DNA of 64,000 nt from an uncultured Actinomycetes bacterium (GCA_963765295.1 CAVXVO010000004.1:349059-413058); one strand, 5' to 3'. Positions 35,455 through 55,292 are shown, counted from the stretch's first letter. The notes: generated by a model not told the origin, from the sequence alone. Program-made: numbers and translations.

Positions 35455-36553
<1,099 letters not shown>

Positions 36554-38731: not shown

Positions 38732-38744
38732 ACTGTCCCCGCTC

Positions 38745-38818
38745 GGGGGCGTAGTTCAGCTGGTTAGAACGCCGGCCTGTCACGCCGGAGGTCGCGGGTT
38801 CGAGTCCCGTCGCTCCCG
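38745..38818 (+). tRNA. tRNA-Asp (anticodon GTC); attachment site of integrated elements
   Basis: Acceptor GGGGGCG/CGCTCCC and D-arm GTTCAGCTGGTTAGAAC. Anticodon stem GCCGG/CCGGA-type carries loop CTGTCAC. T-arm is GCGGG-TTCGAGT-CCCGT. Confidence 0.9.
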
Positions 38819-38821
38819 TCC
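38773..38821 (+). repeat. direct repeat copy 1 (attL-like; 3' 46 nt of tRNA-Asp plus 3 nt)
   Basis: The 49-bp sequence cggcctgtcacgccggaggtcgcgggttcgagtcccgtcgctcccgtcc is identical to 50259-50307. Its 3' 44 bp are identical to 59814-59857. Confidence 0.95.
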
Positions 38822-38826
38822 TAGCG

Positions 38827-38855
38827 AAGCCCTGCATGTGCAGGGCTTTTCTGTT
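38827..38855 (+). terminator. tRNA-Asp terminator hairpin
   Basis: AAGCCCTG-catgtg-CAGGGCTT is followed by TTCTGTT. Confidence 0.6.
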
Positions 38856-38902
38856 CAGATGGGTCATTGCCCAGTGGCGCTTTTGCTCGACATCCTTTCG
38901 GA

Positions 38903-38924
38903 TGTCAGCGCAATGTCAGCAGGG
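38903..38924 (+). repeat. arm-type-site-like motif, left copy (TGTCAGCGCaATGTCAGCAgGG)
   Basis: It contains ATGTCAGC twice, 11 bp apart. It lies 82 bp inside DR1 and is 20/22 identical to 50137-50158. Confidence 0.6.
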
Positions 38925-40157
38925 CAGTCGAAACCGGCTTTTCGCCCGCCTCTCCCGACAGGTCGTGCGCGGGTGCGGATGCGCCGAATCCGAACGAAAG
39001 CAGCCGGTCGCGGGCTTCATCGCGCTGCGGCTTGCCGAACGACCGGGCGTAGCTCCTCATCCAGACCGAAAGCGAGTGCCCGGTCATTTGCGCCGCCTCC
39101 ACGGGGTCAACTCCTCGACGTCCGGACAGCGAGCAAAACGATCGACGGAGGTCGTGGGGGGTCACCTTGCCGAGTCCGGCTCTCTTGGCGGCAACTTCGA
39201 CTCCGCGCACGGCGACGTTCCGCTGACTGAGGGGCGTGCCAGCGCGACTGACGAACACGAGGTCGCCGTCGCCACCTCGTCCCAGTGCCTGCTCGCGAGC
39301 CAGCAACTCGACCAGCGCATCCTCGACAGCCGGGAGCATCGGCACCACGCGAACGCCCGCCGCTGTCTTCGTCGGGACGATGCGAGCGGGCCGGTCTGCC
39401 CGCGCCAACGAAAGCTGTCCACGGATGTTGATCTCGCCTTCGACGAAGTCAACGTCGCACCACCGGAGTCCGAGCGCCTCGCTCAGCCGGAGGCCGGTGT
39501 AGGCGAGGACGGCCACGACCGGCTTGTAGATCGTGTCGGCGTGCCGGGCCAGCGCCGCCAACTCTTGCTCATCAAGAACGCGGCCGTGTCCTCCAGCACG
39601 AGGTCGGGGAAGCTCGGCCGGATCAAGTCCATCAAGTGGTGATCTACTGATAAGTCCTCGACGGCCAGCCAGCCGGTACACGGCGCGAAGAATGAGCAGC
39701 ACAGACGCGATGGTCGATTCGGCGTACCTTCGCCGCCGCATGGAATGAATGACTTCGGCGACGTGATCAGGCTCAACATCACCGATCTTCCGGTGACCCA
39801 GTGCCGGGGAGATGTGCAAGCGCCACCGGTCGCGGTAGAGGTCAACGCCTCGTTCTGAGCGTCGCCCGCTGGCGGCTAGCCCGTCAAGCCAGGGAAGTAA
39901 ACGAGTTGAGCAAACGCGTCCAGGCTCTGGGGGACGGCGACGACCCGGTCGCCGATGTCACGTTGCGCGAGTAGCGCGCGTGTCTCCTTGAGAGCCGCCC
40001 GGTCGCTCCTGGCTGAGAGTTTCTTCGTGTGTTGCGTGCGATCGCTATCCCGGAACGTAGCTTCGTAGACCCACGTCCCATCTTTCCGGCGACGCTTGTA
40101 GATGTTCTCGGCGACGCGGACGCGCGATGCAGCGCCGTGCGAGGATTCATTTCGCAT
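38905..40157 (-). pseudogene. int: tyrosine recombinase/integrase, interrupted by a -1 frameshift (about 39879-39915)
   Basis: The N-terminal arm/SAM-like part is ORF 39876..40157 (ENIYKRRRKDGTWVYEATFRD...). The catalytic part is in the frame of ORF 38905..39819, with R...HDLRRS...GHSLSVWMRSY active-site-type motifs. That frame stays open upstream as LLPWLDGLAASGRRSERGVDLYRDRWRLHISPALG. Confidence 0.85.
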
Positions 40158-40545
40158 GGGGAGTAGCTCCTCTCCTTGCCGGGGGCGGGGCCGTTAGCGC
40201 GGCGCTCGCCCCATTTCGTGTCGTCTGAATCGTACCGTCCGCCCTCAAAGCGGCGTCCAGCGCGGAGGTATCGACGAGCCAGCGTGCTCCGTCTCGGACA
40301 GCACCTGGAAGCTGTCCGCGCTGAGCCCGTTTGCGAAGCGCGCCGGACGTGCTCCGATAGCGCGTGGCGGCCTCCTCCAGGGTCAGCCATGCCGGTCTCG
40401 CCTCACCGAGTTGCGCCAGCACGATCTCGGCCGCCCTCATCGCGATCGTCTCGATCGAGCCCGGCGGGCACACGAACGTCATCTCGACGATGTTGCCGTT
40501 CGCCGTGCCAGCCGTCCTCGTCCGAGTCCGAGGATCGCTGTTCAC
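40147..40545 (-). CDS. xis: excisionase-like helix-turn-helix (HTH_17/MerR-type) protein
   Basis: 132 aa with WLTLEEAATRYRSTSGALRKRAQRGQLPGAVRDGARWLV. Its GTG start overlaps the upstream stop (GTGA), and its 3' end overlaps the int start. Confidence 0.65.
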   Translation of the reverse strand: MNSDPRTRTRTAGTANGNIVEMTFVCPPGSIETIAMRAAEIVLAQLGEARPAWLTLEEAATRYRSTSGALRKRAQRGQLPGAVRDGARWLVDTSALDAALRADGTIQTTRNGASAALTAPPPARRGATPHAK

Positions 40546-41312
40546 GCGTCCTCCGGAATGTCAGGGGTGAACGGGAGGTCGTCGTCGTCGTCGTCGTCGT
40601 CTAGCTCGAACTCCTCGGGTTGGCAGCGTCGCCCTGCAAGGGCGTTATCAAGGAGGCGGTAGGCGTACCCCGCATCAGAGCGGACGTCCGGCCGCTGATC
40701 TACGGAGGCGAGAACGTCGTAGACCTCGTCCGCGTCCAGACGTCCGAACCGCTTTCGGAAGAGCAAAAGTGTCCCTGAGTCTGCGTCTTCGAGACTGTCC
40801 ACTAGTTCTTGAAGAGCGTGGTCTGTCTCGTCCTCGACTGACGTGGGTTCTGATCGCAGATACTCGCGCGGCGTCGCGTCAGCGGCGTCCGCGTGACAGT
40901 CAGTCAGGCTCTCCCTACTCTCTCCTCCTTCCTCTATACGTGCCCGCTCGATAGCGGGCGTTTGTGCGGGTGTTTGTGCGGGGCTTCCCGCGGGTGTTTC
41001 GCTCGCTATGTCCCGCTCGGACGCGGGGGTTTCGTCCCCGAAGAGGAGCGTGTACGTCCCACGGTGACCGCGACCCGTGTGTTCGGGCGGTTCGTAGCTG
41101 AGCAGGCCCTTGTAGATCAGTCCGTCCCTGGCCCGCTTGAAGCTCCGCCCGTGGTGTAACCGCGAAGATTCGCGGAGCAGGTCTTCACCGACGCGCTGTG
41201 ACCTGACACGGAAGCCAAGCAACAGGCGAACGAGGGCTATAGCAAGCTGCCACTCCTCAGTACCCAGCCCGGCGTCGAGGAGGCGCTCGTGGAAGACGTT
41301 GTAGTCGCTCAC
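40542..41312 (-). CDS. putative replication/winged-helix protein with acidic C-terminus (Rep_O-like N-terminus)
   Basis: 256 aa. The N-terminal about 100 aa resemble the phage replication-protein wHTH (EEWQLAIALVRLLLGF...SFKRARDGLIYKGLLSY). It contains a D8 run encoded by (GTC)8. The assignment is tentative. Confidence 0.45.
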   Translation of the reverse strand: MSDYNVFHERLLDAGLGTEEWQLAIALVRLLLGFRVRSQRVGEDLLRESSRLHHGRSFKRARDGLIYKGLLSYEPPEHTGRGHRGTYTLLFGDETPASERDIASETPAGSPAQTPAQTPAIERARIEEGGESRESLTDCHADAADATPREYLRSEPTSVEDETDHALQELVDSLEDADSGTLLLFRKRFGRLDADEVYDVLASVDQRPDVRSDAGYAYRLLDNALAGRRCQPEEFELDDDDDDDDLPFTPDIPEDA

Positions 41313-41848
41313 GCGCCCGCCTTCAGCGCGTGGCCGACGCCCCTCTCGGGGGCTAAGTCAGGGTCGTCCTGTCGCCCCGGGCCCGCCCGCGTCGGCCGAG
41401 CCCGGCGACGCCCGCGCGGCCGTGACCTCCCCTGAGCCGTCTGCCTCGACGTACTCACCGACGTCGCCCGCGCACACGTTGACGGCGAGATCGCGGCGCG
41501 GCTCTGAGCCACGCGGGAGTCGAGTCGCCACGCCACCTCCGTGAGTGCGGCTGCGGCCATCTCTATCTCGCTCGCACCGCCGTCCTCGCCAGAGGCAAGG
41601 GCGTCGGCTGCGTCTTCTCGCTCGGCGCGTGTCATAGAGACGCCGTCCCGACCCGCCCGGGTGATGGCTTCCGCCAACGTGTCCCTAGCCGCCTCCAGGC
41701 GCATCGCCGAGGTCGGCGGCGACGACCACGCTCCGCCCTGGACTTGCCACGCCGCATATCCCGCTGCGGCGTGATCAGCCGGGTCTAGCTCGGCGGTCGG
41801 ACTCAGCGCGTCGGCGGCCACCGGAATACCGTCCTGCAGTTCACGCAA
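41309..41848 (-). CDS. hypothetical protein (island A)
   Basis: 179-aa ORF whose stop overlaps the next start (GTGA). The C-terminal third is Arg/Pro-rich, and an alternative frame (RDLAVNVCAGDVGEYVEADGSGEV) looks more protein-like. A further frameshift is therefore possible. Confidence 0.4.
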   Translation of the reverse strand: MRELQDGIPVAADALSPTAELDPADHAAAGYAAWQVQGGAWSSPPTSAMRLEAARDTLAEAITRAGRDGVSMTRAEREDAADALASGEDGGASEIEMAAAALTEVAWRLDSRVAQSRAAISPSTCARATSVSTSRQTAQGRSRPRGRRRARPTRAGPGRQDDPDLAPERGVGHALKAGA

Positions 41849-42023
41849 ACGAGTCTAGGACGGCGCCAGGACGGAGCCCCGAAACCCGCCGCAAAACGGC
41901 TAAGGGCCGCACATTGGCGGCCCCTGCCGGTGAACTTCGTCGGACGGTAACCGACAGAGCGAATCGTAGAGACCGCGCCGGAGAGCAAACCTCATTTGCC
42001 GCGAGACGAGCCGGGAGGTCGAA

Positions 42024-42251
42024 CTAATCGCCCAGATGCCGAAGTTCCTTCGGCACCCAGGTCGGGCTGAAGTGCTCGAAGCAGTCGAAGACCATCTTCG
42101 CCACCCCGTGATCGACGCGAACCGCCACACCCTTCCGATACAGCCCGCAAACGTCGGCATGTCCGACATCCTCGTCGCGATCGATCCGCGATTCAAGCTC
42201 GCTTGGCCCCGAGGGTGTGGGGTAGACGGCTCTGTGGTGCAGACCTATCAT
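42024..42251 (-). CDS. small hypothetical protein (island A)
   Basis: Internal ATG (MIGLHHRAVYPTPSG...FEHFSPTWVPKELRHLGD). No family was recognised and the coding signal is weak. Confidence 0.3.
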   Translation of the reverse strand: MIGLHHRAVYPTPSGPSELESRIDRDEDVGHADVCGLYRKGVAVRVDHGVAKMVFDCFEHFSPTWVPKELRHLGD

Positions 42252-42286
42252 CCTCGCCTCAGCGAGCACAAGGAGGCAGGGAACCC

Positions 42287-42616
42287 ATGCGCGCATCGAT
42301 TCGATACCTCGCCGTTGCCGCGCTCGCGGCCGCCGTGACCAGCGCCGTCATGGCGACAACCGGACAGGCGAGCAGCGACAGGACGGCGACGAAGAACTAC
42401 ACGCTGAAGCCTGGGAGCTACGTCAGGTTCGTGGGCATTGACCTGTCCTGCCTCTATCAGCCGAACGACCCGGATCATCACGATCCAGGGCCTGCGTTGT
42501 TCTGCAACCGCTACAGCGCCAACAACAGCCGGTCGTTCGGCGCGAGCAACTACCACTACAGGGTGAGCGATCCAGCGGGCAATCACTGGATCACCACCAT
42601 CAACAGGTCGCCGTAA
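42287..42616 (+). CDS. small secreted hypothetical protein
   Basis: ATG at 42287 follows AAGGAGG. The translation begins MRASIRYLAVAALAAAVTSAVMATTGQASS, a signal peptide. The mature part is about 80 aa. Confidence 0.6.
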   Translation: MRASIRYLAVAALAAAVTSAVMATTGQASSDRTATKNYTLKPGSYVRFVGIDLSCLYQPNDPDHHDPGPALFCNRYSANNSRSFGASNYHYRVSDPAGNHWITTINRSP

Positions 42617-42754
42617 GGCTCGAAACCCGACCCCCTGCGTCGCTCACCGTCGCGGCCGACTTGTACCCCGGAAGCGGCCCGGCGAGGGAGATCGTGGCCG
42701 CGCCTCCGACGCGATGAACCTCGGCCCGTCCGCTTTCGCGGCCAACATGGAGCA

Positions 42755-43534
42755 ATGCCGCGCACGTGCAGCGTCTGCTCCCATCCGGATAGGCAGAAGA
42801 TCGACAGATTGCTCCTGGAGCAAACGTTAAGGGACGTGTCGGGACAGACGGGTATCGGGAAGTCGGCGCTCGGTCGCCACAAGCTCGCCCACCTGCCCGG
42901 CGCGCTCGTGCTCGCCAACGAGCAGGAGATCGAGCGGCACCGGCAGTTGTTCGACGAGGCGCAGAGCTTGCAGCGGTCGCTCGCGGGCTGGGGCGCAGTG
43001 CGCGAGCCCGGGGAGTGGCTGGAGCTTCGCGAACGCGCTGTGGCGGACTACGAGTCGGGACGGTTCCTCCTCACCCGGCTGGGCGCCGAACGGCACCTCG
43101 ACCCCGAACAGGTCGCGACGCTACTCCACCTCCGCGGCCGGATCATCGACGAGATGCACCTGACCACCGGGCTGGAACTGATGCTGCTCGACGCGGCGCT
43201 CATCGCCTTCAGAAACATGCTGCTGATCGAGGAGTGGATCGGGAACCTAAGCTTGCTGGTCGAACACCACCTGTTCCGCGACGAGGGGCCGACCCCGAAG
43301 ATCAACCGCACGAACGGCCGCTACCAGGGCCTCGCTGCCGAGGACGACGCGCGACGCCTCCGGGACGACCTGCTCCCCGCGCTCGACCGGGCGAGCAAGA
43401 ACTTTGTCAGCGCGATCAAGACGCTCCGCGACTTCCACGGCACCGGCGTCAACGTCACCATCGCCGCGGTGGGCCAGATGAACGTCGGCGAGCAGCAACT
43501 TGTCGTCGGGCCGAGTGTGACGCCGTCCGCCTAG
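42755..43534 (+). CDS. hypothetical protein with N-terminal CxxC + HTH-like module (phage/plasmid-type)
   Basis: 259 aa. MPRTCSVCSHPDRQKIDRLLLEQTLRDVSGQTGIGKSALGRHKLAHL resembles small DNA-binding modules of mobile elements. The remainder is unknown. Confidence 0.55.
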   Translation: MPRTCSVCSHPDRQKIDRLLLEQTLRDVSGQTGIGKSALGRHKLAHLPGALVLANEQEIERHRQLFDEAQSLQRSLAGWGAVREPGEWLELRERAVADYESGRFLLTRLGAERHLDPEQVATLLHLRGRIIDEMHLTTGLELMLLDAALIAFRNMLLIEEWIGNLSLLVEHHLFRDEGPTPKINRTNGRYQGLAAEDDARRLRDDLLPALDRASKNFVSAIKTLRDFHGTGVNVTIAAVGQMNVGEQQLVVGPSVTPSA

Positions 43535-43846
43535 CGCGCGACCGACCCGACGGCGCAGGCGGACGCCCGCTGAAACCTCACACGATGTGAGACTTGGCGA
43601 GCCCGGGCTCAGCCCGTGAGCGGCTCTCTGACGTCGATCCGGCCCGGGACGACGATCACCCCACTTCCGCCTCGCAGGGCTTCCACTGTGCTCGTGGCGG
43701 GTTGTAACAGGCTCGTCGCTAAGCCGGGCCCCTCGCCCTACTACGCCCTCGCGCCGACGAGCATCACGAGCGGCGGCGAGGTGTAGGCGTCGTGGCTGTG
43801 TCGTCCGCGAGTCGGAGCCCAGCCTGGCGCGTGTCACCATTCCTGG

Positions 43847-44830
43847 ATGGGGCGGACGCCATGGGAGATTCTGACCGAGGCCGATGAGCACCTCCGCGAA
43901 CCGAGGCTGTCTGGTGTCGAGTCTTGGCGCATGACACCGGGGACGGTCTTGCAACGGTGGTCGTCTCTGAGCGAGCTGGACAGGCCGCGCTACCTGACGT
44001 TCGAGCAGCGGATGGGCCGCTTCCCGGATGCGGTCAGAACCTGGCCGGTGGAATGGCAGGGCAACCTGATTCTGGTGGCGCTGCGCCACCGGCACCTTCT
44101 CGACCAGGAGAAGCTGGCTCGAACGCTCGGTGTCGAGCCATGGGAGATCAAGCCCGCCCTGCCAGTGCGAGTGCGGATGAAGCTCGGGTTCGAGCCGGGC
44201 TTCGAGACGCTCGTGACCGACGAGCAAGTAGCCCGATTCATCGACGTTCGAGTGACCCGGATGCGCGGCGCGACCATCGCCACCGGCACTTCCTACGCCA
44301 CCGCCACCGTCATCCCCGACGCCCTGATCGCACTGACGCGCGCGGCCGTCGGTGACTTCGCGACCGAGCCACTGCCTCTCGACCACCCGCTCGGCCTCTA
44401 CCAGTCGTATCTCCGTCAGACGCCCGCCGTGGTCAAGACTGTGCTTGAAGACGTTTCGAACCGGGTCAACTTCCCGATCTGGGCTCCAGCCGACCTGCTA
44501 GCCGGAGGCGATGTGTTCCATCTCGACGGCGCTGACTGGTCATCAGCACTGGGCTCACCCGCCAGCGAACTCGACCGGATCACTCTCACACTCTCGATGC
44601 AGCCCGGCCACTGGACGACCTACCTCGACCAGTCGCCGAGCCCCGCACACAACAAGCAGGCACGACAGGAGTGGCCGCGATACACCACACCCGGAGCCGA
44701 TAAACCCTGGATGACAAACGTGCTCCAGGTCGAGCGCGAGGGCGTCGGGATCACGATCGTCGCGCACGAACGCTTCCCCGAATCCCTGCAACCGATCGCG
44801 GACTCGCTCGTCCCGTTCGCAGCCGGGTAG
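43847..44830 (+). CDS. hypothetical protein (island A)
   Basis: 327-aa ORF with non-repetitive, protein-like composition. No motif was recognised. Confidence 0.5.
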   Translation: MGRTPWEILTEADEHLREPRLSGVESWRMTPGTVLQRWSSLSELDRPRYLTFEQRMGRFPDAVRTWPVEWQGNLILVALRHRHLLDQEKLARTLGVEPWEIKPALPVRVRMKLGFEPGFETLVTDEQVARFIDVRVTRMRGATIATGTSYATATVIPDALIALTRAAVGDFATEPLPLDHPLGLYQSYLRQTPAVVKTVLEDVSNRVNFPIWAPADLLAGGDVFHLDGADWSSALGSPASELDRITLTLSMQPGHWTTYLDQSPSPAHNKQARQEWPRYTTPGADKPWMTNVLQVEREGVGITIVAHERFPESLQPIADSLVPFAAG

Positions 44831-45180
44831 CGGCCCCTCCGACTTCAACCGGCCCCCGGTCAAGTTAGACGTATCGAGCCGCAGCAGCGGCACGGAAAGG
44901 TACTGACGGCCACCCGCATCGACAAGCCGACACTTTCCTCGCACAGCACACCCGCACCGTCCCAGCAGTGAGGGCCGCTCGTGGCGGTGCGGGCTCCTTA
45001 CCCCACAGAACCGCCTGACCCTGGCCGCCCCGGGGCCAGGCGCGTTTCGCCAAGCCTCCTAGTAGTAGGCCGAGCCCGAGCCGGGCCACCCGCCCTCGAC
45101 GCCCGACTACGCCTCGGCGAAGACGACCATCACGTACGGCGCCGACGCCGTCACCTCGATCGGCGCCGCCAGACAGGTGC

Positions 45181-45423
45181 TTACGCCATGGCGGTTCCGA
45201 CCGCCTCGATCGGCTTTGACCCCGAGGAAACCTCCTTCACCTTCCGACCCCGCCGTGCCTGCTTGCGGCCCTTACGGGCAAGCTCCTCAGCTTCTTCAAC
45301 CGTGACATCGAGGACAAACTGGCCCTTACGGGAGTCCGCGAACGTGACTGTCACGGTCGCGCTATTGCCTTCCTCGATGACGTCGCCCGAGAGGTCTGAA
45401 ACGATCACGGTTCGTCTTGCCAC
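45181..45423 (-). CDS. small basic protein resembling the Lsr2 N-terminal (oligomerisation) domain
   Basis: GTG at 45423 follows AAAGGAG. VARRTVIVSDLSGDVIEEGNSATVTVTFADSRKGQFVLDVTVEEAEELARKG parallels the Lsr2 N-terminal pattern. An Arg/Lys-rich linker follows. No obvious C-terminal AT-hook domain is present. Confidence 0.45.
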   Translation of the reverse strand: MARRTVIVSDLSGDVIEEGNSATVTVTFADSRKGQFVLDVTVEEAEELARKGRKQARRGRKVKEVSSGSKPIEAVGTAMA

Positions 45424-45565
45424 GTCCGCTCCTTTCGCCGAGAGGGGACGAAACCTAGCCAAGCCAACGCGCGACAGAACCACTTCACGGTGGGCCCGGG
45501 ATCGGCCGACTCCGAGTGCGTGGGCGATGAAGTGCGAGTTGAGTCCGGTCGGAACCGGGGTAGGC

Positions 45566-45784
45566 CTAGATCGAGTCCCGCTCGCGCGAGCTTGCGGCGG
45601 GTACCGACGGCGGCGTGGTGTCGTCGTCGATCGCGTCGGCGTGGTGGACGATGCCGTCCTTCAACTCGCGGATGCCCTTGCCGAGAGAGCGTCCCATCTC
45701 GGGGAGACGCTTCGGCCCGAAGACGAGGAGTACGACAAGCGCGAAGATCGCGATGTGCCAGGGGCTGATCAGTCCCGATCCCAT
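45566..45784 (-). CDS. tatA: twin-arginine translocase subunit TatA/E
   Basis: 72 aa. MGSGLISPWHIAIFALVVLLVFGPKRLPEMGRSLGKGIRELK is the canonical TatA TM helix plus amphipathic helix. Confidence 0.9.
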   Translation of the reverse strand: MGSGLISPWHIAIFALVVLLVFGPKRLPEMGRSLGKGIRELKDGIVHHADAIDDDTTPPSVPAASSRERDSI

Positions 45785-46009
45785 CGCGAGTGAGGCTAGC
45801 AGCCGGGCCTCGCGCTCTGATGCGCGCTCGCGTCGTTGAGACCAGGCACGGCCCGATCGGGGGCGATCTCGCCTCGATCAGGCCGAGGATGAGGGTTTGC
45901 TGCCTCGCGTCGACGCGTCTCACTCTCGCCTCATCTGGGATCGTGACCCTCGGTCGCCACTCAGGATGGATAGGAGTGACGACCAGCCTCGGGTTGAGAC
46001 GCGGTCGCG

Positions 46010-47638
46010 TTGTGGTCAGACGGGTCGCGTGTGACCAGCGAGCGGGCGCCAGGTGCAGCCGCGTGGCTGGTGGCGGCGTTCGGCTGGCTGGAGCGGCTGG
46101 CCGGTAGCTGGCGAGGGGCAGTTGCGCTGTTTGCTGTCGCGCTTGCTGATTTCGTTGTGCAGGCGGTCGCGTGGCCGTTGATCGCCGGGAAGAACCTCGA
46201 TCAGTATCTGCTGACGTACGTTCAGTTGTTCGATCGGCACCCGTTGTTGCCGTGGGCGCCGCTGTTTCGCGGCCCGGGAGCAGGCGTCGTGATCGGGCCG
46301 TTGCTCAGCCTCGACCGCGGCGGGTTGGCGGAGCCGGTGGCGGCGGTGCTGTTCGCGGTGTCGATCGTCGCCTGGAGCGGCGCGGCCCTGTGGTTCGGAC
46401 GCCGTGCCGCGATCCTGACCGCGTTCGCGCTGCTCTTGTATCCGGGGTACGGCGGTCTGTTTCACGAGTTCGCGAGCGAGATCGTGATGGCGACCGTGTT
46501 CTCCCTGTGGGCGCTCGCGGTCACGAGAGCGGCGATGCGGCCGTCCGTCGCCCGGTTCGCGCTCGCCGGGCTCGGGATCGCCGGGCTCGTGCTGATCCGG
46601 CCGGGCAACGCCGTCCTCGTGCCGTTCGCTCTGTTCCCGCTTCTACTCGCCGGACAGCGGAGACGGCGGCTGACGTGGGCCGCTGCGTTCGCGGCCGCGG
46701 CTTGCCTGCCCCTGGCCGCCTGGACGCTTCAGAACGGCTGGCGCTACGGCGACTACACGCTCGCCCGAGGGGGAAACGCTGTCATCCCCTTCTACCGCAC
46801 CTTCGTGCTCGACAAGACCGTCTCACCCGCCAACGGCCCCGCCTCACGCCGACTCGCCGCAGCCATCCAGCAACACCTACTCACACACAACCCCTACAAG
46901 GCGAACCACGTCACCCTGCAACAAGTGCTCGCGTCCGGTAGCAGCCGTGTCCACGAAGACCTGTACGTCCTTTCCGACCAGGTCTTCGGCTGGAACAGCG
47001 CCTACTCAACCCTCCGCGACGCAGGCTGGGAAGCGATCAAGGCACACCCGGGCACCTACGCCTCCAGCGTCGCCGACACGGTCTGGCAGCAACTCTCAAG
47101 CCCCGTCTACTCCACCCGCTCCCAGCACACACCCACGACTCCCACCGGCAACGATGGCCGCGTCCCCGCACCGAGCAAAGGCGAGTTGATCCCAGTCGGG
47201 CAGACGGCCTGGATATCCCGACCCGATCAGAGCATCCGCGAACTCTGGACATCCCCGACCACCCACGAGTTCGTCTTCCTCAAACCCGGCCAGAAACCAC
47301 GCTTCAACCAGATCACCCACGACCTCACGACACTCGCCGGCAACTTCCCCCACCGCGCCGGAAGCACCGAAGTCCAGCATCGGTTGAACCAGATCGCCCA
47401 TCGCTACCCGCCACCGATCTTCTGGCTCCTAGTCGGGCTGGCTGCCCTCCTGATTCGACGCCCGCTCGGAACAAAGACCGTCGCCATGCTTACGACCGCC
47501 GCCCTGACGGTGATCGCCTTCAACGCACTCGCCCAGACCGCGGAGCCGAGGTACATGCTCCCCGTCGCACCCGCCTTCATCCTCCTCGCAGCCGCCGCAC
47601 TCCTCGGCCACACGCGACCGTCTGATCCGACAGACTGA
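46010..47638 (+). CDS. GT-C fold membrane glycosyltransferase (GT39/ArnT-PMT-like)
   Basis: 542 aa with about 9 N-terminal TM helices, a large soluble loop or domain, and a C-terminal TM helix. The family is assigned by architecture only, and the start is uncertain. Confidence 0.55.
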   Translation: MWSDGSRVTSERAPGAAAWLVAAFGWLERLAGSWRGAVALFAVALADFVVQAVAWPLIAGKNLDQYLLTYVQLFDRHPLLPWAPLFRGPGAGVVIGPLLSLDRGGLAEPVAAVLFAVSIVAWSGAALWFGRRAAILTAFALLLYPGYGGLFHEFASEIVMATVFSLWALAVTRAAMRPSVARFALAGLGIAGLVLIRPGNAVLVPFALFPLLLAGQRRRRLTWAAAFAAAACLPLAAWTLQNGWRYGDYTLARGGNAVIPFYRTFVLDKTVSPANGPASRRLAAAIQQHLLTHNPYKANHVTLQQVLASGSSRVHEDLYVLSDQVFGWNSAYSTLRDAGWEAIKAHPGTYASSVADTVWQQLSSPVYSTRSQHTPTTPTGNDGRVPAPSKGELIPVGQTAWISRPDQSIRELWTSPTTHEFVFLKPGQKPRFNQITHDLTTLAGNFPHRAGSTEVQHRLNQIAHRYPPPIFWLLVGLAALLIRRPLGTKTVAMLTTAALTVIAFNALAQTAEPRYMLPVAPAFILLAAAALLGHTRPSDPTD

Positions 47639-47676
47639 CCACATGTCCACGACCGCGGCGCGAAGCGGCCGCGAAC

Positions 47677-48771
47677 ATGAAGGGCCCTGACCGGCTCTGG
47701 GCAGGCGAACACGACGAGCGCCACTGGCGATGGGCGCCGCTCGGCGTCGGCACGTTGGCGTTCGCCCTCGGGCTAGTCAGCCTCACAGGTCAGCGACGCT
47801 CCTACGACGAGCGAATCACGATCGAGACCTCGGCCCGCTCGGTAAGCGGTATCTGGCACGCGGCACGGACGACCGAGGCACCGCACCTCGTCTACTACCT
47901 ACTGATGAAGCCCTGGCTCGCTGCCTTCGGGTCGAGCGACTGGGTTGCACGCTTCCCCTCCATCGTATTCGGGGCACTAGCAGCGACGCTGCTGACGGCA
48001 CTCGGTATCCGCCTGTTCGGAGGCCTCGCCGGTCTGGTTGCCGGGGCGGCCTTGGCGACAGCCCCGTACGTGATGCACTTCTCGCAATGGGCGCGCGGCT
48101 ACTCGCTGGCGCTCCTCCTGACCGTGCTCGCCAGCTACGCCTACGCACGCGCCCACGACGACCCACGGGGACGATGGGTGGCGCTCTGGGCGGTCGCGCT
48201 CGTCGCCGCCTGCTGGGTCAACCTGTTCGCGATCTCCGTCCTCGCCGCACAGGTGACCGCTTACCTGGTCATGCGGCCGCGCCCACGGCCCCGTCTCGCC
48301 ACTGCCGCCCTCCTCGCAGTCAGCGCGGCCGTGACACCGATCATCATCCTCGTCGCGACCGCAGACAACGGCCAACTCAACTGGATTCCCACACCCACCA
48401 TCCACCGCGTCGCCGTACAAACCTGGGACTGGTCGAGCCGAAACCCCGTCGCGCTCGTGGCGGCAGCGATCGGCGTCGTCGCACTGCTGGTCGGAACCCG
48501 GCGCCCCCCGCGCTGGAAAGCACTCCTCGTCATCGGCTGGACGATCGCTCCCTTCCTGCTCACCCTCGCCCTGTCGATCGTGCAACCCGCCTTCGACTCC
48601 CACTACCTCCTAACCGCAGCCGCCGGACTCGCACTCCTCATCGGAGCAGGCATCGCCGCCCTCCCACAACGGGCATCCCTGATCCTGCTCGCCCTCGTCG
48701 CCGCAGGCGCCGGACTGCAACTCGCCCACTACTACATCGCACCCGGACGCCCCTTCACATCGCTGTTCTGA
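47677..48771 (+). CDS. GT-C fold membrane glycosyl/mannosyltransferase (GT39/PMT_2-like)
   Basis: 364 aa. YDERITIETS...APHLVYYLLMKPWLAAFGSSDWVARFPSIVFGALA matches the conserved first-loop pattern of PMT_2-type transferases. The protein is polytopic. Confidence 0.65.
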   Translation: MKGPDRLWAGEHDERHWRWAPLGVGTLAFALGLVSLTGQRRSYDERITIETSARSVSGIWHAARTTEAPHLVYYLLMKPWLAAFGSSDWVARFPSIVFGALAATLLTALGIRLFGGLAGLVAGAALATAPYVMHFSQWARGYSLALLLTVLASYAYARAHDDPRGRWVALWAVALVAACWVNLFAISVLAAQVTAYLVMRPRPRPRLATAALLAVSAAVTPIIILVATADNGQLNWIPTPTIHRVAVQTWDWSSRNPVALVAAAIGVVALLVGTRRPPRWKALLVIGWTIAPFLLTLALSIVQPAFDSHYLLTAAAGLALLIGAGIAALPQRASLILLALVAAGAGLQLAHYYIAPGRPFTSLF

Positions 48772-49149
48772 CCCGCAGCATCGAGTTGGCTTAGCCGTTC
48801 TCCTTGCGGTCGCGGTGGGAGGCGCGCCAGAAGAACCAGCCGACAACGCCGAGAATCACCAGCGGGACGACGATCGAGGCGACGATGATCCCCGCCGTCG
48901 CGGCCGCCTCGGACACCCTGAAGACCAGCACCGAACAGGGAGGTTATGCTCGACCCGTGGGCCCGGGCTTGCGGCTTGACGAGATTTCGCTGCTGCACGG
49001 CGTGCTGCCCTGGAAGATCGACGCGACACGACCGAGGATCGTGAATCGTCCCAGAGTCGCGCTCGCCCTCGTGGCGAATCATGTTGGCCGCGGCCGCGTC
49101 ACGGTGCAAATCCTGAAGCCGACACATCCGACCGCGGCAGCGACTGTTG

Positions 49150-50061
49150 CTAGAGCTTCGTCGCCCAGTACTCAGTGGGCTGTTCGAGATCGATGCAATA
49201 GAGGGTCTGCTCCTCCCCGAGCGTGATGCCGGGGAAGCGCACCGGCCAGCAGAGGTCGCGGAAGACATGGAACGTGACGAGGACTCCGTCGCCGTCCGTC
49301 CTCGCGCGGAGGAGGTGCGTGGGTTCGACGATCCTGGTGCCGTGTCGGTTCGCGGCGCAGTACGCATCGGCGGGTTCGGTTTCGCCTTTCATCGCCGCCT
49401 GGAGCGCCTCACGCACGGGGTCGAGCGCGACCTCGTAGACGTTGTCGCCGAGGCAGAGCGCGAGGTACAGGTAGGCGATGCCGACCGGAACGTGGAGCGG
49501 GGTGATCGGGTCGGTGAGGGCCGGTGCGAACTTCGCGTCAGTCCAGTCGATCTGCCACTGGATGCGGTAGCCGGGTCGGACGTCGATCCAGTCACCGGGC
49601 TCGGCCCTCTCGAAGCGGGCCAGGAGGTCTGCCTTCTGCTCGTCGGATGCGCCCATCCGGTCTAGCTCGGCGAGCGCCTGCTTGATCGTGTTCTCGTCGC
49701 TCTTGATTCTCGCCGACTCCTTTGGCCGTAGCTCCGCCCGGTCGTCCATCCCCGCCTCGACTCGGCCGTACTCCTGGTGGTCGGTGAAGTAGCTCTGCTG
49801 GTAGCGAACACTGGTCACAATGCCTCGCGGGAGTCGGTCTTCGAGCTTGTCCACGAGCAGGCGCACCGAGATGTCTCGTGCGAGCAGCCCCTCCGAGGCG
49901 CCCATGTCGCTGTTGCACCGCTTGCAGACGTTGAACGCCGAGAGCCTGCCGCCGATCGACTGCGGAATGACGTGTCCGTCGGTGCGCTGTGTCATCGGCT
50001 CGCCGTCCTCGGGCGTTCCGAGGCAGACAACGCAGCGCGTGTCGAGCCAGGGCACCTTCAC
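49150..50061 (-). CDS. HNH-endonuclease-motif protein with about 230-aa uncharacterised C-terminal domain
   Basis: I chose GTG at 50061. CVVCLG...DGHVIPQSIGG...NVCKRCNSDMG gives a CxxC...H...N...CxxC HNH-type zinc-finger layout. It is the last gene before DR2. Confidence 0.6.
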   Translation of the reverse strand: MKVPWLDTRCVVCLGTPEDGEPMTQRTDGHVIPQSIGGRLSAFNVCKRCNSDMGASEGLLARDISVRLLVDKLEDRLPRGIVTSVRYQQSYFTDHQEYGRVEAGMDDRAELRPKESARIKSDENTIKQALAELDRMGASDEQKADLLARFERAEPGDWIDVRPGYRIQWQIDWTDAKFAPALTDPITPLHVPVGIAYLYLALCLGDNVYEVALDPVREALQAAMKGETEPADAYCAANRHGTRIVEPTHLLRARTDGDGVLVTFHVFRDLCWPVRFPGITLGEEQTLYCIDLEQPTEYWATKL

Positions 50062-50136
50062 GGCACCGAGAGTACGGAACCGATCAGAACCGGCGGCGGC
50101 GACCGAGCGACAGCTACACGACTCGGCTGTTCGCCG

Positions 50137-50158
50137 TGTCAGCGCGATGTCAGCACGG
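50137..50158 (+). repeat. arm-type-site-like motif, right copy (TGTCAGCGCgATGTCAGCAcGG)
   Basis: It lies 101 bp inside DR2, in the same orientation as the left copy at 38903-38924. Confidence 0.6.
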
Positions 50159-50258
50159 ACGCGTCTTGCGCCGTCCATACCCGTCGCTCGGAAGCGCCAG
50201 GATTCGAGAATCCACGGTGGCCGCGGGACGTCGTGTCCAGCCGTGTCGCAGCACTGTT

Positions 50259-50307
50259 CGGCCTGTCACGCCGGAGGTCGCGGGTTCGAGTCCCGTCGCT
50301 CCCGTCC
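50259..50307 (+). repeat. direct repeat copy 2 (attR of island A / attL of island B)
   Basis: 49/49 identical to 38773-38821. It is followed by its own terminator hairpin AAGACGCTG-gaaa-CAGCGTCTT plus TTTCTTT (50311-50339). Confidence 0.95.
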
Positions 50308-50457
50308 CGAAAGACGCTGGAAACAGCGTCTTTTCTTTGCTTCCAGGCGCCGCGTCCTTCACGCGGATCCGCCAGGGAGGCGCCGCCGTGGAACCACGTG
50401 GAGCGCCTTCCGGGCAGAGCGACCGATCCGTCCCAACGTCCTATCACCGTCGCCGGA

Positions 50458-50961
50458 TCAGACGTTCCCCGGCTCCTGCTCGCTGCGGGCTCGCGCGATG
50501 ATCGCGGTCGTCGAGAGGGGGTTGCCGGCAGCGTCGGCGCTCGTGTACGGAACCGTGGCGAAGATCCCGAGCCGGACCGCCGCGCCGTAGTAGTGGGCGA
50601 TCTCGTTCTCCTCGAAATCGTCGCCGTGGACGACGAGGTCGAGCTCGTGCTGCTCGATGAAAGGGTCGTCGACGATCAGCGGGCAATCGGGCACGACGAG
50701 GTCGACGTACCTGCAGGCGCCGACCACGGCCACCCGTTCGGCGAGCGGGACGATGGGACGCCGCTTGTACGCGGCCGCCGCGTCGTCGCCGAGCAGCCCG
50801 ACGAGCAGCCGCACGTGCGAATCGGCCTCCTCGAGCGGGACGCCGTCTCGGTCGGCAGCGCGTTCGCAGGCCAGCACGCGCACCTGGCGGAGGAAGTTGA
50901 CGTGGCCGCCGTGGAAGAGGTCACCGACCATGTCCGCGTACGCGTTGAAAGCCCGGGTCAC
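50458..50961 (-). CDS. PCYT-like cytidylyltransferase (choline/ethanolamine-phosphate cytidylyltransferase-type, CTP_transf_like)
   Basis: 167 aa with the HxGH motif (DLFHGGHVNF), an RYVD motif (ACRYVDLVV) and a C-terminal ...STTAIIARA motif. These are as in CCT/ECT-type enzymes rather than TagD. Confidence 0.75.
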   Translation of the reverse strand: MTRAFNAYADMVGDLFHGGHVNFLRQVRVLACERAADRDGVPLEEADSHVRLLVGLLGDDAAAAYKRRPIVPLAERVAVVGACRYVDLVVPDCPLIVDDPFIEQHELDLVVHGDDFEENEIAHYYGAAVRLGIFATVPYTSADAAGNPLSTTAIIARARSEQEPGNV

Positions 50962-50963
50962 GG

Positions 50964-51719
50964 TTGTATAGTCGCCCGGATCGTGCCCAGCTGCCGGCGG
51001 ACCGTCGCACGGTGACCACCTCGCCCTGGGACGATGTCTGGCAGAGGCGGACGTTCGACTACTCCCGTGGCTCGCTCCTGTCGGCGCTGATGGCGGCGGA
51101 CGGATTCGGCACGGGGTTCGGCAAGGTCGACGAAGAGAACTGGGCCGGCTATGTCCGGACTATCGCCGGGCGGCTGCGCATCGCGCCGGGCTCGAGCGTC
51201 CTCGAGGTCGGCTGCGGAGCCGGCGCCTTCCTCTATGAGCTCTACCGACAGGGGTGCACCGTCTCGGGGATCGACCGGTCGCCCAAATTGATCGAGTACG
51301 CGCGGCAGGCAATGCCGGAGGGGCGCTTCGACGTCGCCGACGCCTCCGAGCTCGACCCGGGCGAGCCGGTCGACGCCGTCGTGTCGTTCGGCGTCTTCCT
51401 CTACTTCCCCTCGCTGGCCTACGCTCGCCGTGTCCTTGAGCGCATGGCCGTCTCCGCACGGCACGTCGTCGCTGTCCTCGACCTGCCGGATCGCGCCAGG
51501 CGGGCCGAGGACCTGGCCCGCCGTCAGGAGCTCGCCGGTGGCGCCGAGGCCTACGAAGAGTTCTACCGCGGGCTCACGCATCTCTACTTCGACCGGACCT
51601 GGTTCACCCGGACGCTCGACCGGTGCGGCCTGGCCGACGTGGAGGTCGCCGACCAGGAGCTCGTCGGCTACTCGCACGCCCCGTTCCGGTTCAACGCCTG
51701 GGGTTTCGCCCGAGACTGA
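50964..51719 (+). CDS. class I SAM-dependent methyltransferase
   Basis: It has motif I VLEVGCGAGAF and motif II DAVVSFGVFLYF. The start is either TTG at 50964 or, more plausibly, GTG at 51012. Confidence 0.8.
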   Translation: MYSRPDRAQLPADRRTVTTSPWDDVWQRRTFDYSRGSLLSALMAADGFGTGFGKVDEENWAGYVRTIAGRLRIAPGSSVLEVGCGAGAFLYELYRQGCTVSGIDRSPKLIEYARQAMPEGRFDVADASELDPGEPVDAVVSFGVFLYFPSLAYARRVLERMAVSARHVVAVLDLPDRARRAEDLARRQELAGGAEAYEEFYRGLTHLYFDRTWFTRTLDRCGLADVEVADQELVGYSHAPFRFNAWGFARD

Positions 51720-53096: not shown

Positions 53097-53128
53097 GTCG
53101 CGACTATAAGGCTGCCAGGCTCGACGCG

Positions 53129-54373: not shown

Positions 54374-54392
54374 GCGCGGAACCGAGGAGCGG

Positions 54393-55292
54393 GTGATGGG
54401 GCGGCACCGGTTCCTCTGGCCCCTGTTCGCTTTCCCGGGAACGGTCTGGCTCGTCCTGTTCTTCCTGATCCCGTTCTACGCCGTCCTGTCGGTGGCGTTC
54501 GGCACAGTCGATCCGATCTTCCAGGGCCCGGTGCCCGTCTGGAACCCCCTGGACTGGCAATTCGAGACGATGCGCTCGGTCCTCGACCAGCTCCGGCCCG
54601 GGGAGGTCTTCTGGACGGTCTTCGTCCGCACGTTCGCCTATGTGGCGGTCGCACTCGCCGGCTGCCTCGCGATCGGCTATCCCGTGGCGTACTACCTCGC
54701 CCGTCATGCCGGGCGGACGAAGGTGCTGCTGCTCGTGCTGCTGATCATCCCGTTCTGGGTCAGCTACCTGATGCGGATGCTGGCCTGGATCGGGTTGCTC
54801 CTGCCCGACGGGCTCGTCAACCGCACGCTCGTCGACCTCGGCATCCTCAGCCACCCGTACGGCTGGCTCGACGGGCAGCCGTCGTCCGTGATCTTCGCGC
54901 TCGTCTACGGCTACGTGCCCTACCTGATCCTGCCGCTGTTCGCTGTCCTCGATCGGATCGAGCCGCACCTGATCGAGGCCGGCCTTGATCTGGGCGCGAG
55001 CCGTTTCGCCACATTCCTCCACGTCACGCTGCCGCTCAGCAAGCAGGGCATTCTCGCCGGCTGCGTCCTGATCGCCCTGCCGATGTTCGGCGACTACTAC
55101 ACGAACGACGTCATCTCGGGCTCGCCGGGCACGTCGATGATCGGCAACCAGATCAACCTCTTCTTCCAGGGTGGCCCTCAGCGCACGACAGGTGCGGCGC
55201 TCGTCATCGTCCTGGCCCTGCTGCTCGCCGGGCTGATGTCCTACTACCTGATCTCGACCGCGCGCGCGTCGCGCCGGCCGGCGGTGGCATGA
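54393..55292 (+). CDS. ABC importer permease (PotB-like)
   Basis: 299 aa with 6 TM helices and an EAA-type loop (LIEAGLDLGASRFATFLHVTLP). Confidence 0.85.
   Translation: MMGRHRFLWPLFAFPGTVWLVLFFLIPFYAVLSVAFGTVDPIFQGPVPVWNPLDWQFETMRSVLDQLRPGEVFWTVFVRTFAYVAVALAGCLAIGYPVAYYLARHAGRTKVLLLVLLIIPFWVSYLMRMLAWIGLLLPDGLVNRTLVDLGILSHPYGWLDGQPSSVIFALVYGYVPYLILPLFAVLDRIEPHLIEAGLDLGASRFATFLHVTLPLSKQGILAGCVLIALPMFGDYYTNDVISGSPGTSMIGNQINLFFQGGPQRTTGAALVIVLALLLAGLMSYYLISTARASRRPAVA

What the first reader, a model, noticed from the sequence alone, without database searches (positions are those of the whole stretch)
38822..50258. Island A: coupled rep-like/xis/int module and matching 22-bp double ATGTCAGC motifs just inside both ends
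On the minus strand, four genes are chained by overlapping stops and starts: hypothetical, rep-like, HTH excisionase-like, then tyrosine integrase (GTGA at 41309-41312, GTGA at 40542-40545, and an 11-nt overlap at 40147-40157). TGTCAGCGCaATGTCAGCAgGG at 38903-38924 lies 82 bp inside DR1. TGTCAGCGCgATGTCAGCAcGG at 50137-50158 lies 101 bp inside DR2. Each contains ATGTCAGC-type octamers one helical turn apart. After excision these would flank the 49-bp core, as P and P' arm-type integrase-binding sites do. I saw no FtsK/Tra-type transfer gene and no capsid or terminase. It is therefore neither a typical actinomycete conjugative element nor an obvious prophage. It may be a small mobilisable or decaying element.
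Basis: partly seen in the sequence, partly recalled or inferred. Interest (0 to 1): 0.6.

Follow-up and report, generated by a model that had tools for sequence, protein, structure and literature searches.

The report
Integrase arm sites of tRNA-Asp island
An 11.4-kb mobile island sits at the end of a tRNA-Asp gene, and the matching 22-bp double motifs just inside its two ends are very probably the outer ("arm") docking sites of its lambda-type integrase; this is an ordinary mechanism, seen here in an uncharacterised family of actinobacterial elements.

Summary
These features are present at the stated coordinates: tRNA-Asp(GTC), a perfect 49-bp direct repeat, the four-gene overlapping chain hyp-rep-xis-int, and the two 22-bp double TGTCAGC motifs. 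The motif occurs only twice in the 3.75-Mb genome.

Comparative evidence supports the arm-site reading.
- Related integrases (53-79% identity) in about a dozen metagenomic or genomic elements carry the same TG(T/C)CAGC-N4-TG(T/C)CAGC pair.
- The pair sits at a nearly fixed distance 5' of a tRNA-derived core (116-118 bp in five independent elements, 106 in a sixth).
- 3' of the core it sits at 71-73, 82 or 95-96 bp.
- This holds even when the core is tRNA-Ala or tRNA-Asn instead of Asp.
- Two contigs show the joined attP layout.
- The integrase N-terminal 93 aa fold like known arm-binding domains.

The rep-like protein is a winged-helix protein. Its gene contains element-specific 12-bp iterons, a lambda O/ori-like layout.

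No transfer or virion gene is detectable. The integrase frameshift may be an assembly error.

Verdict: a new member of a known kind. Binding of the integrase to the motifs is inferred, not shown.

The parts
38744..38821 (+). tRNA-Asp(GTC), the integration target; its 3' 49 nt are the attL copy of the core
   Evidence: ARAGORN; direct repeat D6
38773..38821 (+). DR1, the attL identity segment (49 bp)
   Evidence: 100% identical to 50259-50307
38822..38858 (+). Element-borne terminator-like hairpin plus U tract directly after the tRNA 3' end
   Evidence: RNA fold -20 kcal/mol, z -3.6. Analogous hairpins follow DR2 and DR3 and the cores of L013, L019 and L041.
38902..38924 (+). P' arm double site (ATGTCAGC gca ATGTCAGC); overlaps the last 6 codons and the stop of int
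   Evidence: It starts 95 bp after the T-arm anchor, as in L025 (96 bp).
38905..39819 (-). Integrase C part (core-binding and catalytic domains)
   Evidence: Phage_integrase 3e-21, phrog_1 1e-51. The catalytic R, K, HxxR, H and Y align to XerA and Tn1549 Int.
39885..39900 (-). Site of the 1-nt loss that splits int. The N frame reads ..VYFPGLTG*; the other frame reads LPWLDGLAASGRRSERGV.
   Evidence: the homologue P0012 reads YFPWLDGLVSSG across this point
39876..40157 (-). Integrase N part, the putative arm-binding domain
   Evidence: Aligns to the N-termini of about 80 full-length homologues. AF2 model pLDDT 79, beta-sheet plus helix. Top 3 PDB fold hits are arm-type binding domains 3rmp, 3ju0, 3jtz.
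40147..40545 (-). Xis-like HTH_17 protein (recombination directionality factor)
   Evidence: HTH_17 3e-5 (below the curated cut-off), phrog_7506 RDF 1e-5. 50-56% identical proteins sit directly upstream of int in L012, L013 and L019.
40542..41312 (-). Rep-like initiator candidate: N-terminal winged helix, disordered linker, helical C-domain
   Evidence: No Pfam, NCBIfam or PHROG hit. AF2 model. Fold hits are MarR-type winged helices, RepA_N initiators 4pql/4pt7/5kbj and DnaD-N, at E~0.1. Only 8 relatives among 5.8e9 proteins.
40953..41040 (-). Putative origin inside the gene: five 11-12-bp iterons ((G/A)AAC-N-CCCGC type), two CCCGC-N6-GCGGG palindromes, then a purine-rich tract (to about 40916)
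   Evidence: (D13). The homologues L008, L009 and L011 have the same layout, each with its own repeat unit.
41309..41848 (-). First gene of the overlapping chain; unknown function
   Evidence: ORF coordinates; no family hit
42203..48771 (.). Cargo block: secreted 137-aa protein (42203-42616 +), 259-aa protein (42755-43534 +), 327-aa protein (43847-44830 +), Lsr2-like (45181-45483 -), TatA (45566-45784 -), two PMT_2/GT-C-type membrane proteins (46010-47638 +, 47677-48771 +)
   Evidence: The 259-aa gene and the second GT-C gene recur at about 80% nt identity in L057 beside an unrelated Int/Xis.
49150..50178 (-). HNH_5 endonuclease-domain protein; the true start may be the GTG at 50061
   Evidence: HNH_5 1.3e-8; ORF translation
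50136..50158 (+). P arm double site (GTGTCAGC gcg ATGTCAGC)
   Evidence: It ends 118 bp before the T-arm anchor, against 116-117 bp in L012, L013, L019 and L071.
50200..50219 (+). Semi-conserved P-arm box (GGATTCGAGAATCCACGGTG) between the arm site and the core; candidate Xis or host-factor site
   Evidence: Aligns with ATTCGGCTCAACGGTGCG of L019, L013 and island B. The function is inference only.
50259..50307 (+). DR2, the attR identity segment (displaced tRNA-Asp 3' fragment)

Best explanation
Island A (38822-50258) is a small integrative element inserted by site-specific recombination into the 3' end of tRNA-Asp.

Recombination module. It is of the lambda / mycobacteriophage L5 / pSAM2 type.
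- A heterobivalent tyrosine integrase would bind the tRNA-derived core with its central and catalytic domains.
- Its about 75-aa N-terminal domain would bind the two double TGTCAGC sites.
- After excision these sites lie about 100 bp 5' (P arm) and about 80 bp 3' (P' arm) of the 49-bp core.
- The HTH_17 Xis encoded just upstream of int would set the direction towards excision, perhaps through the semi-conserved box between the P site and the core.

Replication. Once excised, the circle could be replicated by the winged-helix Rep-like protein acting on the iterons inside its own gene, as lambda O acts on ori-lambda.

Transfer. The element has no detectable transfer or virion genes. Spread would need a helper, so it would behave as a mobilisable or satellite-like element.

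Shown: the anatomy; the uniqueness of the motif; its conservation, geometry and linkage to the Int-Xis module; the fold of the N-domain.

Inferred: that Int binds the motifs; that Xis, Rep and the origin work as proposed; that the element is or recently was active.
For: Uniqueness: 2 copies in the window (0.01 expected) and 2 in the genome.

Conservation:
- The double motif (at most 1 mismatch) is found in 11 of 19 loci that encode Int homologues of at least 53% identity.
- It is nearly always 0-550 bp beyond the int stop; the one exception overlaps the int 3' end. There is only one stray hit in 107 kb.
- L013, a syntenic tRNA-Asp island in a relative, has GTGCCAGCGCCGTGCCAGCG inside both ends.
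- L019 and L023 show motif-core-motif, the joined attP layout.

Linkage to the core rather than to particular genes:
- The cores differ (Asp in the window, L013, L019, L025, L041; Ala-TGC in L012, L023 and L071 = G187; Asn in L024) while the motif stays.
- Replication genes also differ: D5_N primase in L013, a DnaB-type helicase next to P0009.

Geometry:
- The P motif ends 116-118 bp before the T-arm anchor in 5 independent elements.
- The P' motif starts at 71-73, 82 or 95-96 bp, in steps of about one or two helical turns.

Concerted change: all half-sites within one element share T or C at position 3.

N-domain:
- The AF2 model has a beta-sheet plus a helix.
- The top three PDB fold matches are arm-type binding domains of P4-like, HPI and HAI7 integrases; the Tn916 Int N-domain also appears.
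- The catalytic residues are intact.

Other modules:
- Xis homologues travel with Int.
- The iteron layout is conserved in Rep homologues, each with its own repeat unit.

Literature: pairs of arm-type sites flanking attP cores are the rule for lambda-like actinobacteriophage integrases (PMC10865867).
Against: - No binding or excision data exist.
- The fold matches are weak statistically (E 0.2-0.4, TM 0.42-0.50).
- The integrase is split by a frameshift in this assembly.
- Two related loci, L018 and L020, have no TGNCAGC pair near int.
- In distant relatives, TGGCAGC pairs bracket the int gene itself. I could not fit that arrangement to an attP.
- The Rep-like protein matches no curated replication family. 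Its fold hits are generic winged helices.
- The window's N-domain departs from the near-invariant DGRQR hairpin.
Confidence: 0.78

Rival explanations
1. The element is a dead relic: an AICE-like element or prophage that lost its transfer or virion genes and whose integrase is truly frameshifted. The motifs would then be fossil arm sites with no present function.
For: - int is frameshifted.
- The N-domain has unique G40R/R41T changes.
- No Tra, FtsK or virion genes are detected.
- The cargo is mosaic, and an integrase-less island lies next to it.
- AICE remnants and tandem insertions at one tRNA are documented (PMC2440964).
Against: - All other parts are intact: a perfect 49-bp repeat, both double sites, the catalytic residues, Xis, and Rep with its iterons.
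- Both arms share the same unusual second half-site, ATGTCAGCA, which suggests recent selection.
- A conserved sigma-70 gene nearby is also frameshifted, so the int frameshift may be an assembly error.
- Sister elements (L013, L057) also lack transfer genes, so the small size may be the native state.
Confidence: 0.3
2. The double motifs are binding sites for another protein rather than for the integrase N-domain: Xis/RDF, a repressor that controls int and the HNH gene, or a partition or replication protein.
For: - The Xis homologue co-occurs with Int as strictly as the motif does.
- The left motif overlaps the int 3' end, and the right motif lies at the 5' end of the HNH ORF.
- In distant relatives a pair lies upstream of int, like an operator.
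Against: - RDF sites normally lie on one arm only, between the arm site and the core. Here the motif is on both arms at a fixed distance from the core, and at a variable distance from genes: 11 to 535 bp from the int stop.
- The motif differs from the Rep iterons and persists with other replication modules.
- A dedicated arm-binding-type N-domain is present.
Confidence: 0.08
3. The two motifs match by chance or belong to a generic genome-wide repeat.
For: None beyond the short length of the half-site.
Against: - 0.01 matches are expected in the window and 2 are found.
- No other copy exists in 3.75 Mb.
- The motif recurs at the same positions in about a dozen related elements.
Confidence: 0.01

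Closest known systems
Lambda Int/attP and mycobacteriophage L5 Int/attP (heterobivalent tyrosine integrases with arm-type sites)
   Same: - The integrase has an N-terminal arm-binding domain plus core-binding and catalytic domains.
- Short direct-repeat sites sit on both arms about 70-120 bp from the core.
- int ends next to the P' arm.
- A small Xis is encoded just upstream of int.
- Pairs of arm-type sites flank the core, as reported for lambda-like actinobacteriophage integrases (PMC10865867).
   Different: - The motif (TG(T/C)CAGC x2, 11 bp apart) and this integrase clade are uncharacterised.
- The nearest sequenced phage integrases are below 35% identical.
- Only one pair was detected on each arm, against lambda's P1, P2 and P'1-3 (from general knowledge).
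- No virion genes are present.
AICEs such as pSAM2, pMEA300 and SLP1 (actinomycete integrative and conjugative elements; PMC2440964)
   Same: - About 10-kb size and integration into a tRNA 3' end.
- A rep-xis-int gene order.
- The ability, inferred here, to replicate after excision.
- Tandem insertion at one tRNA that leaves a roughly 44-bp att site between elements.
   Different: - No FtsK/SpoIIIE-type Tra, Spd, Kor/Pra or Nudix genes.
- Rep is neither RepSA, RepAM nor prim-pol by HMM.
- No match in the plasmid collection.
Arm-binding domains of P4-like / HPI / HAI7 integrases (PDB 3rmp, 3jtz, 3ju0) and the Tn916 Int N-domain (1b69)
   Same: They are the best fold matches of the modelled 93-aa N part. 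The shared fold is a small beta-sheet packed on a helix.
   Different: Sequence identity is only 15-18% and the Foldseek E-values are weak. The DNA motif is unrelated as far as I know.
Lambda O protein with ori-lambda inside the O gene
   Same: The N-terminal winged-helix DNA-binding domain is followed by a flexible linker. The DNA that encodes the linker carries direct repeats and an A/purine-rich tract.
   Different: - No hit to the Pfam Phage_rep_O model or to any Rep model.
- The repeats are 11-12 bp; lambda's iterons are about 19 bp (from general knowledge).
- Origin function is untested.
CIMEs (cis-mobilisable elements) and accretion at ICE attachment sites; relevant to neighbouring island B
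   Same: Island B (50308-59813) is bounded by att copies and has arm-like double sites, but no recombinase.
   Different: Its arm motif (TGGAACG) differs from island A's, so island A's integrase would not be expected to serve it.

Membership tests
Heterobivalent (lambda-type) tyrosine integrase system | Tyrosine recombinase catalytic domain with R, K, H-x-x-R, H/W and Y | tested here: met
   Phage_integrase 3e-21. Motifs TGLRLSE, KT..GVR, PHDLRRS, GHS and SYA align to XerA and Tn1549 Int.
Heterobivalent (lambda-type) tyrosine integrase system | Separate N-terminal arm-binding domain | tested here: met
   The 93-aa N part is homologous to the N-termini of roughly 400-aa relatives. AF2 gives a beta-sheet plus helix. 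The top PDB fold hits are arm-type binding domains, with weak E-values.
Heterobivalent (lambda-type) tyrosine integrase system | Repeated arm-type sites on both sides of the attP core, distinct from the core sequence | tested here: met
   The double motif lies on both arms in the window, L013, L019 and L023. The distances are conserved, and the cores vary while the motif stays.
Heterobivalent (lambda-type) tyrosine integrase system | Integrase N-domain physically binds the arm sites; excision needs Xis | not testable with these tools
   Needs EMSA or footprinting and in vivo recombination assays
Heterobivalent (lambda-type) tyrosine integrase system | Intact integrase reading frame | tested here: inconclusive
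   A 1-nt loss splits the gene. A nearby sigma-70 gene is also frameshifted.
AICE (actinomycete integrative and conjugative element) | FtsK/SpoIIIE-domain Tra protein (conjugation module) | tested here: not met
   None of 60 ORFs from all frames hits it in Pfam or PHROGs at E<=0.01
AICE (actinomycete integrative and conjugative element) | Int plus Xis and integration into a tRNA 3' end | tested here: met
AICE (actinomycete integrative and conjugative element) | RepSA, RepAM or prim-pol replication protein | tested here: not met
   The gene in the Rep position matches no model. It is a winged-helix protein of a rare family.
Prophage | Terminase, portal, capsid, tail or lysis genes | tested here: not met
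   No such hit. No DNA or protein match to sequenced phages beyond distant integrases.
Phage satellite (PICI / P4-like) | Small int-carrying island with its own replication initiator and origin, without a full virion gene set | tested here: inconclusive
   Size, Int, Xis and Rep with iterons fit. Distant Rep homologues sit beside a capsid gene (L011) or a weak TerL hit (L008). No packaging or helper-interference gene was recognised here.
Phage satellite (PICI / P4-like) | Induction and packaging by a helper phage | not testable with these tools
   Needs culture work; no helper is known
Lambda O-type initiator with an origin inside its gene | Match to the Phage_rep_O family model | tested here: not met
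   No Pfam hit even at E<=1
Lambda O-type initiator with an origin inside its gene | N-terminal winged-helix domain plus direct repeats inside the linker-coding DNA | tested here: met
   AF2 winged helix at residues 1-90 and a disordered stretch at 95-156. The iterons are in the window and, each with its own repeat unit, in L008, L009 and L011.

The most novel reading that the evidence does not exclude
The Int-Xis-arm-site module may define a large, undescribed family of small actinobacterial integrative replicons with three properties.
1. The arm code (TGTCAGC, TGCCAGC, TGGCAGC, possibly TGGAACG) and the arm-to-core geometry are held fixed, while the tRNA core (Asp, Ala, Asn), the replication module and the cargo are swapped.
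2. Some members, like this one, would replicate from an origin inside a new winged-helix initiator gene and spread as helper-dependent satellites.
3. Integrase-less neighbours such as island B keep their own arm sites at the same 117/95-bp geometry and would be moved in trans by a matching integrase elsewhere.
Probability: 0.3. Interest if true: 0.55.

Novelty: new member of a known kind. Interest (0 to 1): 0.35.

Why it matters
If confirmed, this gives a defined attP (about -140 to +120 around a tRNA-derived core), a simple arm-site motif and a matched Int-Xis pair for a group of actinobacteria. The taxon is unnamed here; the flanks are syntenic with L013. Few integration tools exist for such organisms.

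It also offers a natural series of elements in which arm motif, spacing and core vary separately. That series is useful for studying how arm-binding domains read DNA and how intasome geometry is constrained.

The recombination mechanism itself is textbook. The candidate origin inside the rep gene and the integrase-less island with its own arm sites are the less ordinary by-products.

Tried and rejected
- Genome-contig scan with the Int C part: only an unrelated Dialister integrase.
- Family-level genome searches: Rep is in 4 of 301 genomes and close Int relatives in 2 of 401. Species representatives gave few sister islands, so I used metagenome contigs instead.
- Sequenced phages and plasmids: no close relative of Int or Rep.
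- IMG/VR scan for the consensus double motif: one hit, with no Int or tRNA context.
- Empty-site search in the genus: the right flank of DR3 is not next to tRNA-Asp in relatives. It lies by tRNA-Thr in G214, so the region is rearranged and no clean empty attB was obtained.
- Gauging the assembly's indel error rate against G214: inconclusive, because the indels seem to lie in G214.
- Looking for an N-domain residue that tracks T versus C at half-site position 3: no consistent position among five sequences.
- Looking for an integrase beside the second TGGAACG P arm on contig C2: none within 20 kb.
- TerS-like idea for the 259-aa protein: no family hit, and its homologues are unnamed.
Full report
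**What is there**

- The window carries tRNA-Asp(GTC) at 38744-38821.
- Its last 49 nt are repeated perfectly at 50259-50307. The two copies bracket an 11.4-kb segment.
- That segment has slightly lower G+C than its flanks (66.6% against about 69%).
- Next to the tRNA, on the minus strand, four ORFs overlap stop-to-start: 41309-41848 (unknown), 40542-41312 (rep-like), 40147-40545 (HTH_17, Xis-like) and the integrase.

**The integrase**

- It is in two pieces. A 93-aa N part (39876-40157) aligns to the N-termini of about 80 full-length relatives of roughly 400 aa. A 304-aa C part (38905-39819) hits Phage_integrase at 3e-21 and phrog_1 at 1e-51.
- The catalytic R, K, HxxR, H and Y are present.
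- Homologues read YFPWLDGL across the break. The window has lost one base right after YFP.

**The rest of the island**

- A small secreted protein, 259-aa and 327-aa proteins of unknown function, a weak Lsr2-like gene, and TatA.
- Two PMT_2/GT-C-type membrane proteins and an HNH_5 protein.
- None of 60 ORFs from all six frames matches FtsK/Tra, terminase, capsid or portal models.

**The motif is real and not a generic repeat**

- TGTCAGCGCNATGTCAGCANGG occurs at 38903-38924 and 50137-50158, both on the + strand.
- No further copy exists in the window at up to 3 mismatches (0.01 expected). None exists in the 3.75-Mb genome at up to 2 mismatches.
- The left copy overlaps the last six codons of int.
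- The right copy lies in the first 14 codons of the longest HNH ORF. It lies upstream of that gene if the GTG at 50061 is the true start.

**Comparative test**

The integrase has many relatives at 53-79% identity, nearly all on metagenome contigs.

1. L013 is the most informative.
   - It comes from a relative with the same flanking genes. The sigma-70 and S-methyltransferase genes are 74-84% identical in DNA.
   - It carries a 9.9-kb island in the same tRNA-Asp, bounded by a 43-bp repeat.
   - That island has GTGCCAGCGCCGTGCCAGCG 60 bp inside one end and about 106 bp inside the other.
   - This is the same architecture as in the window, with T changed to C in all four half-sites.
2. A scan of all loci found the double motif (at most one mismatch) in 11 of the 19 loci with Int homologues of at least 53% identity.
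   - It is nearly always within 0-550 bp beyond the int stop; in L024 it overlaps the int 3' end. There is one stray hit in 107 kb.
3. L019 and L023 show motif, tRNA-derived core, motif. This is the joined attP layout expected after excision, or a junction of two tandem sister elements.
4. The core varies while the motif stays.
   - tRNA-Asp fragment in the window, L013, L019, L025 and L041.
   - tRNA-Ala(TGC) fragment in L012, L023 and a same-genus genome (L071).
   - tRNA-Asn in L024.
5. The replication genes vary too: a D5_N primase in L013 and a DnaB-type helicase next to P0009.
6. The Xis homologue always travels with Int.

So the motif is linked to the Int-Xis module and to the core, and not to Rep, the cargo or a particular neighbouring gene.

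**Geometry** (measured from a fixed point in the tRNA T-arm, GGAGGTCGC)

- The P-side motif ends 118 bp upstream in the window, 117 in L012 and L013, 116 in L019 and L071, and 106 in L023.
- The P'-side motif begins 95 bp downstream in the window, 96 in L025, 82 in L023, and 71-73 in L013, L019 and L041.
- The P' values differ by about one or two helical turns.
- Spacing conserved to within 1 bp across different cores is what an intasome with bridged arm and core sites would demand.

**The arm-binding domain**

- An AlphaFold2 model of the 93-aa N part used an alignment of 57 sequences. It has mean pLDDT 79, with four short strands followed by a long helix.
- Its three best PDB fold matches are the arm-type binding domains of P4-like, HPI and HAI7 integrases (3rmp, 3ju0, 3jtz).
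  - Probability is 0.89-0.95 and TM 0.42-0.50, but E is only 0.2-0.4.
  - The Tn916 Int N-domain also appears.
- The core of this domain (Y-x-R-R ... F-R-D-x-D-G-R-Q-R) is kept even in integrases only about 30% identical overall. Those carry TGGCAGC pairs.
- The window's copy has unique G40R/R41T changes in that hairpin.
- Both of its arms share an unusual second half-site, ATGTCAGCA, where relatives mostly have GTGTCAGCG. This may be co-adaptation or early decay.

**The rep-like gene**

- It matches no Pfam, NCBIfam or PHROG model.
- It has only eight relatives among 5.8 billion proteins.
- The model shows a confident N-terminal winged helix (residues 1-90), a disordered stretch (95-156) and a helical C-domain.
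- Fold matches are MarR-type winged helices, RepA_N plasmid initiators (4pql, 4pt7, 5kbj) and the DnaD N-domain, all near E = 0.1.
- The DNA encoding the disordered linker holds five 11-12-bp direct repeats, two CCCGC-N6-GCGGG palindromes and a purine-rich tract.
- The homologues in L008, L009 and L011 have the same layout, each with its own repeat unit.
- This mirrors lambda O with ori-lambda inside the O gene, and it supports an initiator-plus-origin reading at about 65%.
- Distant homologues lie next to a capsid gene (L011) or a weak TerL hit (L008). The family therefore has phage-like company.

**What kind of element**

- It shares size, tRNA target and rep-xis-int order with AICEs (PMC2440964). 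It fails their defining conjugation module.
- It fails every prophage criterion.
- L057 carries the 259-aa gene and a GT-C gene at about 80% nucleotide identity next to an unrelated Int/Xis, so the cargo is mosaic.
- The best description is a small integrative, probably replicative, non-self-transmissible element. It may be mobilisable, satellite-like or recently inactivated.

**Is the frameshift real?**

- A conserved sigma-70 gene 3 kb away is also frameshifted relative to its 85%-identical orthologue in L013.
- The genome is an 8-contig assembly scored 90.6% complete.
- An assembly error is therefore plausible.

**Neighbour**

- A third copy of the tRNA-Asp 3' fragment lies at 59814-59857.
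- The segment between DR2 and DR3 has no integrase but carries its own double sites.
  - An exact TGGAACGAACATGGAACG ends 117 bp before the anchor.
  - A degenerate TGGAACCACGTGGAGCG starts 95 bp after it.
  - This is the same geometry as island A.
- It also has a P-arm box like that of L019 and L013.
- Each of the three tRNA 3' copies is followed by its own terminator hairpin.
- The same TGGAACG P arm, joined to a tRNA-Ala fragment, occurs on contig C2 of this genome.

**Verdict**

- The arm-site interpretation is strongly supported by comparison, but binding is not shown.
- The mechanism is a known one in an uncharacterised family.

Noticed in passing
window 50308-59857: 'Island B' between DR2 and a third tRNA-Asp 3' copy (59814-59857) has no integrase. 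It does have its own double sites, TGGAACGAACATGGAACG (59689-59706) and TGGAACCACGTGGAGCG (50389-50405). These sit at the same 117/95-bp geometry as island A's sites. It looks like a CIME-like relic of a sister element with a different arm code.
   Followed up: partly
G000:C2:49040-49230 (L074/L078): The same TGGAACG P arm, followed about 117 bp later by a tRNA-Ala(TGC) 3' fragment and a terminator hairpin, occurs on another contig of this genome. No integrase homologue or tRNA lies within 20 kb upstream.
   Followed up: partly
window 40916-41040 (minus strand): The rep-like gene contains 11-12-bp iterons, two palindromes and a purine-rich tract in the DNA that encodes its disordered linker. 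Homologues keep the layout, each with its own repeat unit. This is a candidate origin inside the initiator gene.
   Followed up: yes
window 36440-36470: A conserved sigma-70-family gene (85% identical to its L013 orthologue) is split by a one-base frameshift. This suggests that the assembly carries indel errors.
   Followed up: partly
L031, L035, L036, L037, L040, L044: In integrases only about 30% identical to this one, TGGCAGC double sites bracket the int gene. One pair lies about 165 bp upstream in opposite orientation and one just after the stop. The position of their core is unknown.
   Followed up: no
L012 4710-4760: Beyond the tRNA-Ala-type core of L012 lies a different double repeat, GGAATGGTGAGCGGAATGGTGAG. 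It is probably the P' arm of a neighbouring element with yet another arm motif.
   Followed up: no
window 59893-60900 versus G214:C3 (L069): In a same-genus genome, the DNA to the right of DR3 lies next to tRNA-Thr(GGT), the homologue of window 4318-4417. This implies a rearrangement between tRNA-linked sites.
   Followed up: no
window 42755-43534 and 47677-48771; L057: The 259-aa protein and a PMT_2/GT-C gene recur at about 80% nucleotide identity in another island (L057) that has an unrelated integrase and Xis. This cargo pair moves between integration modules.
   Followed up: partly
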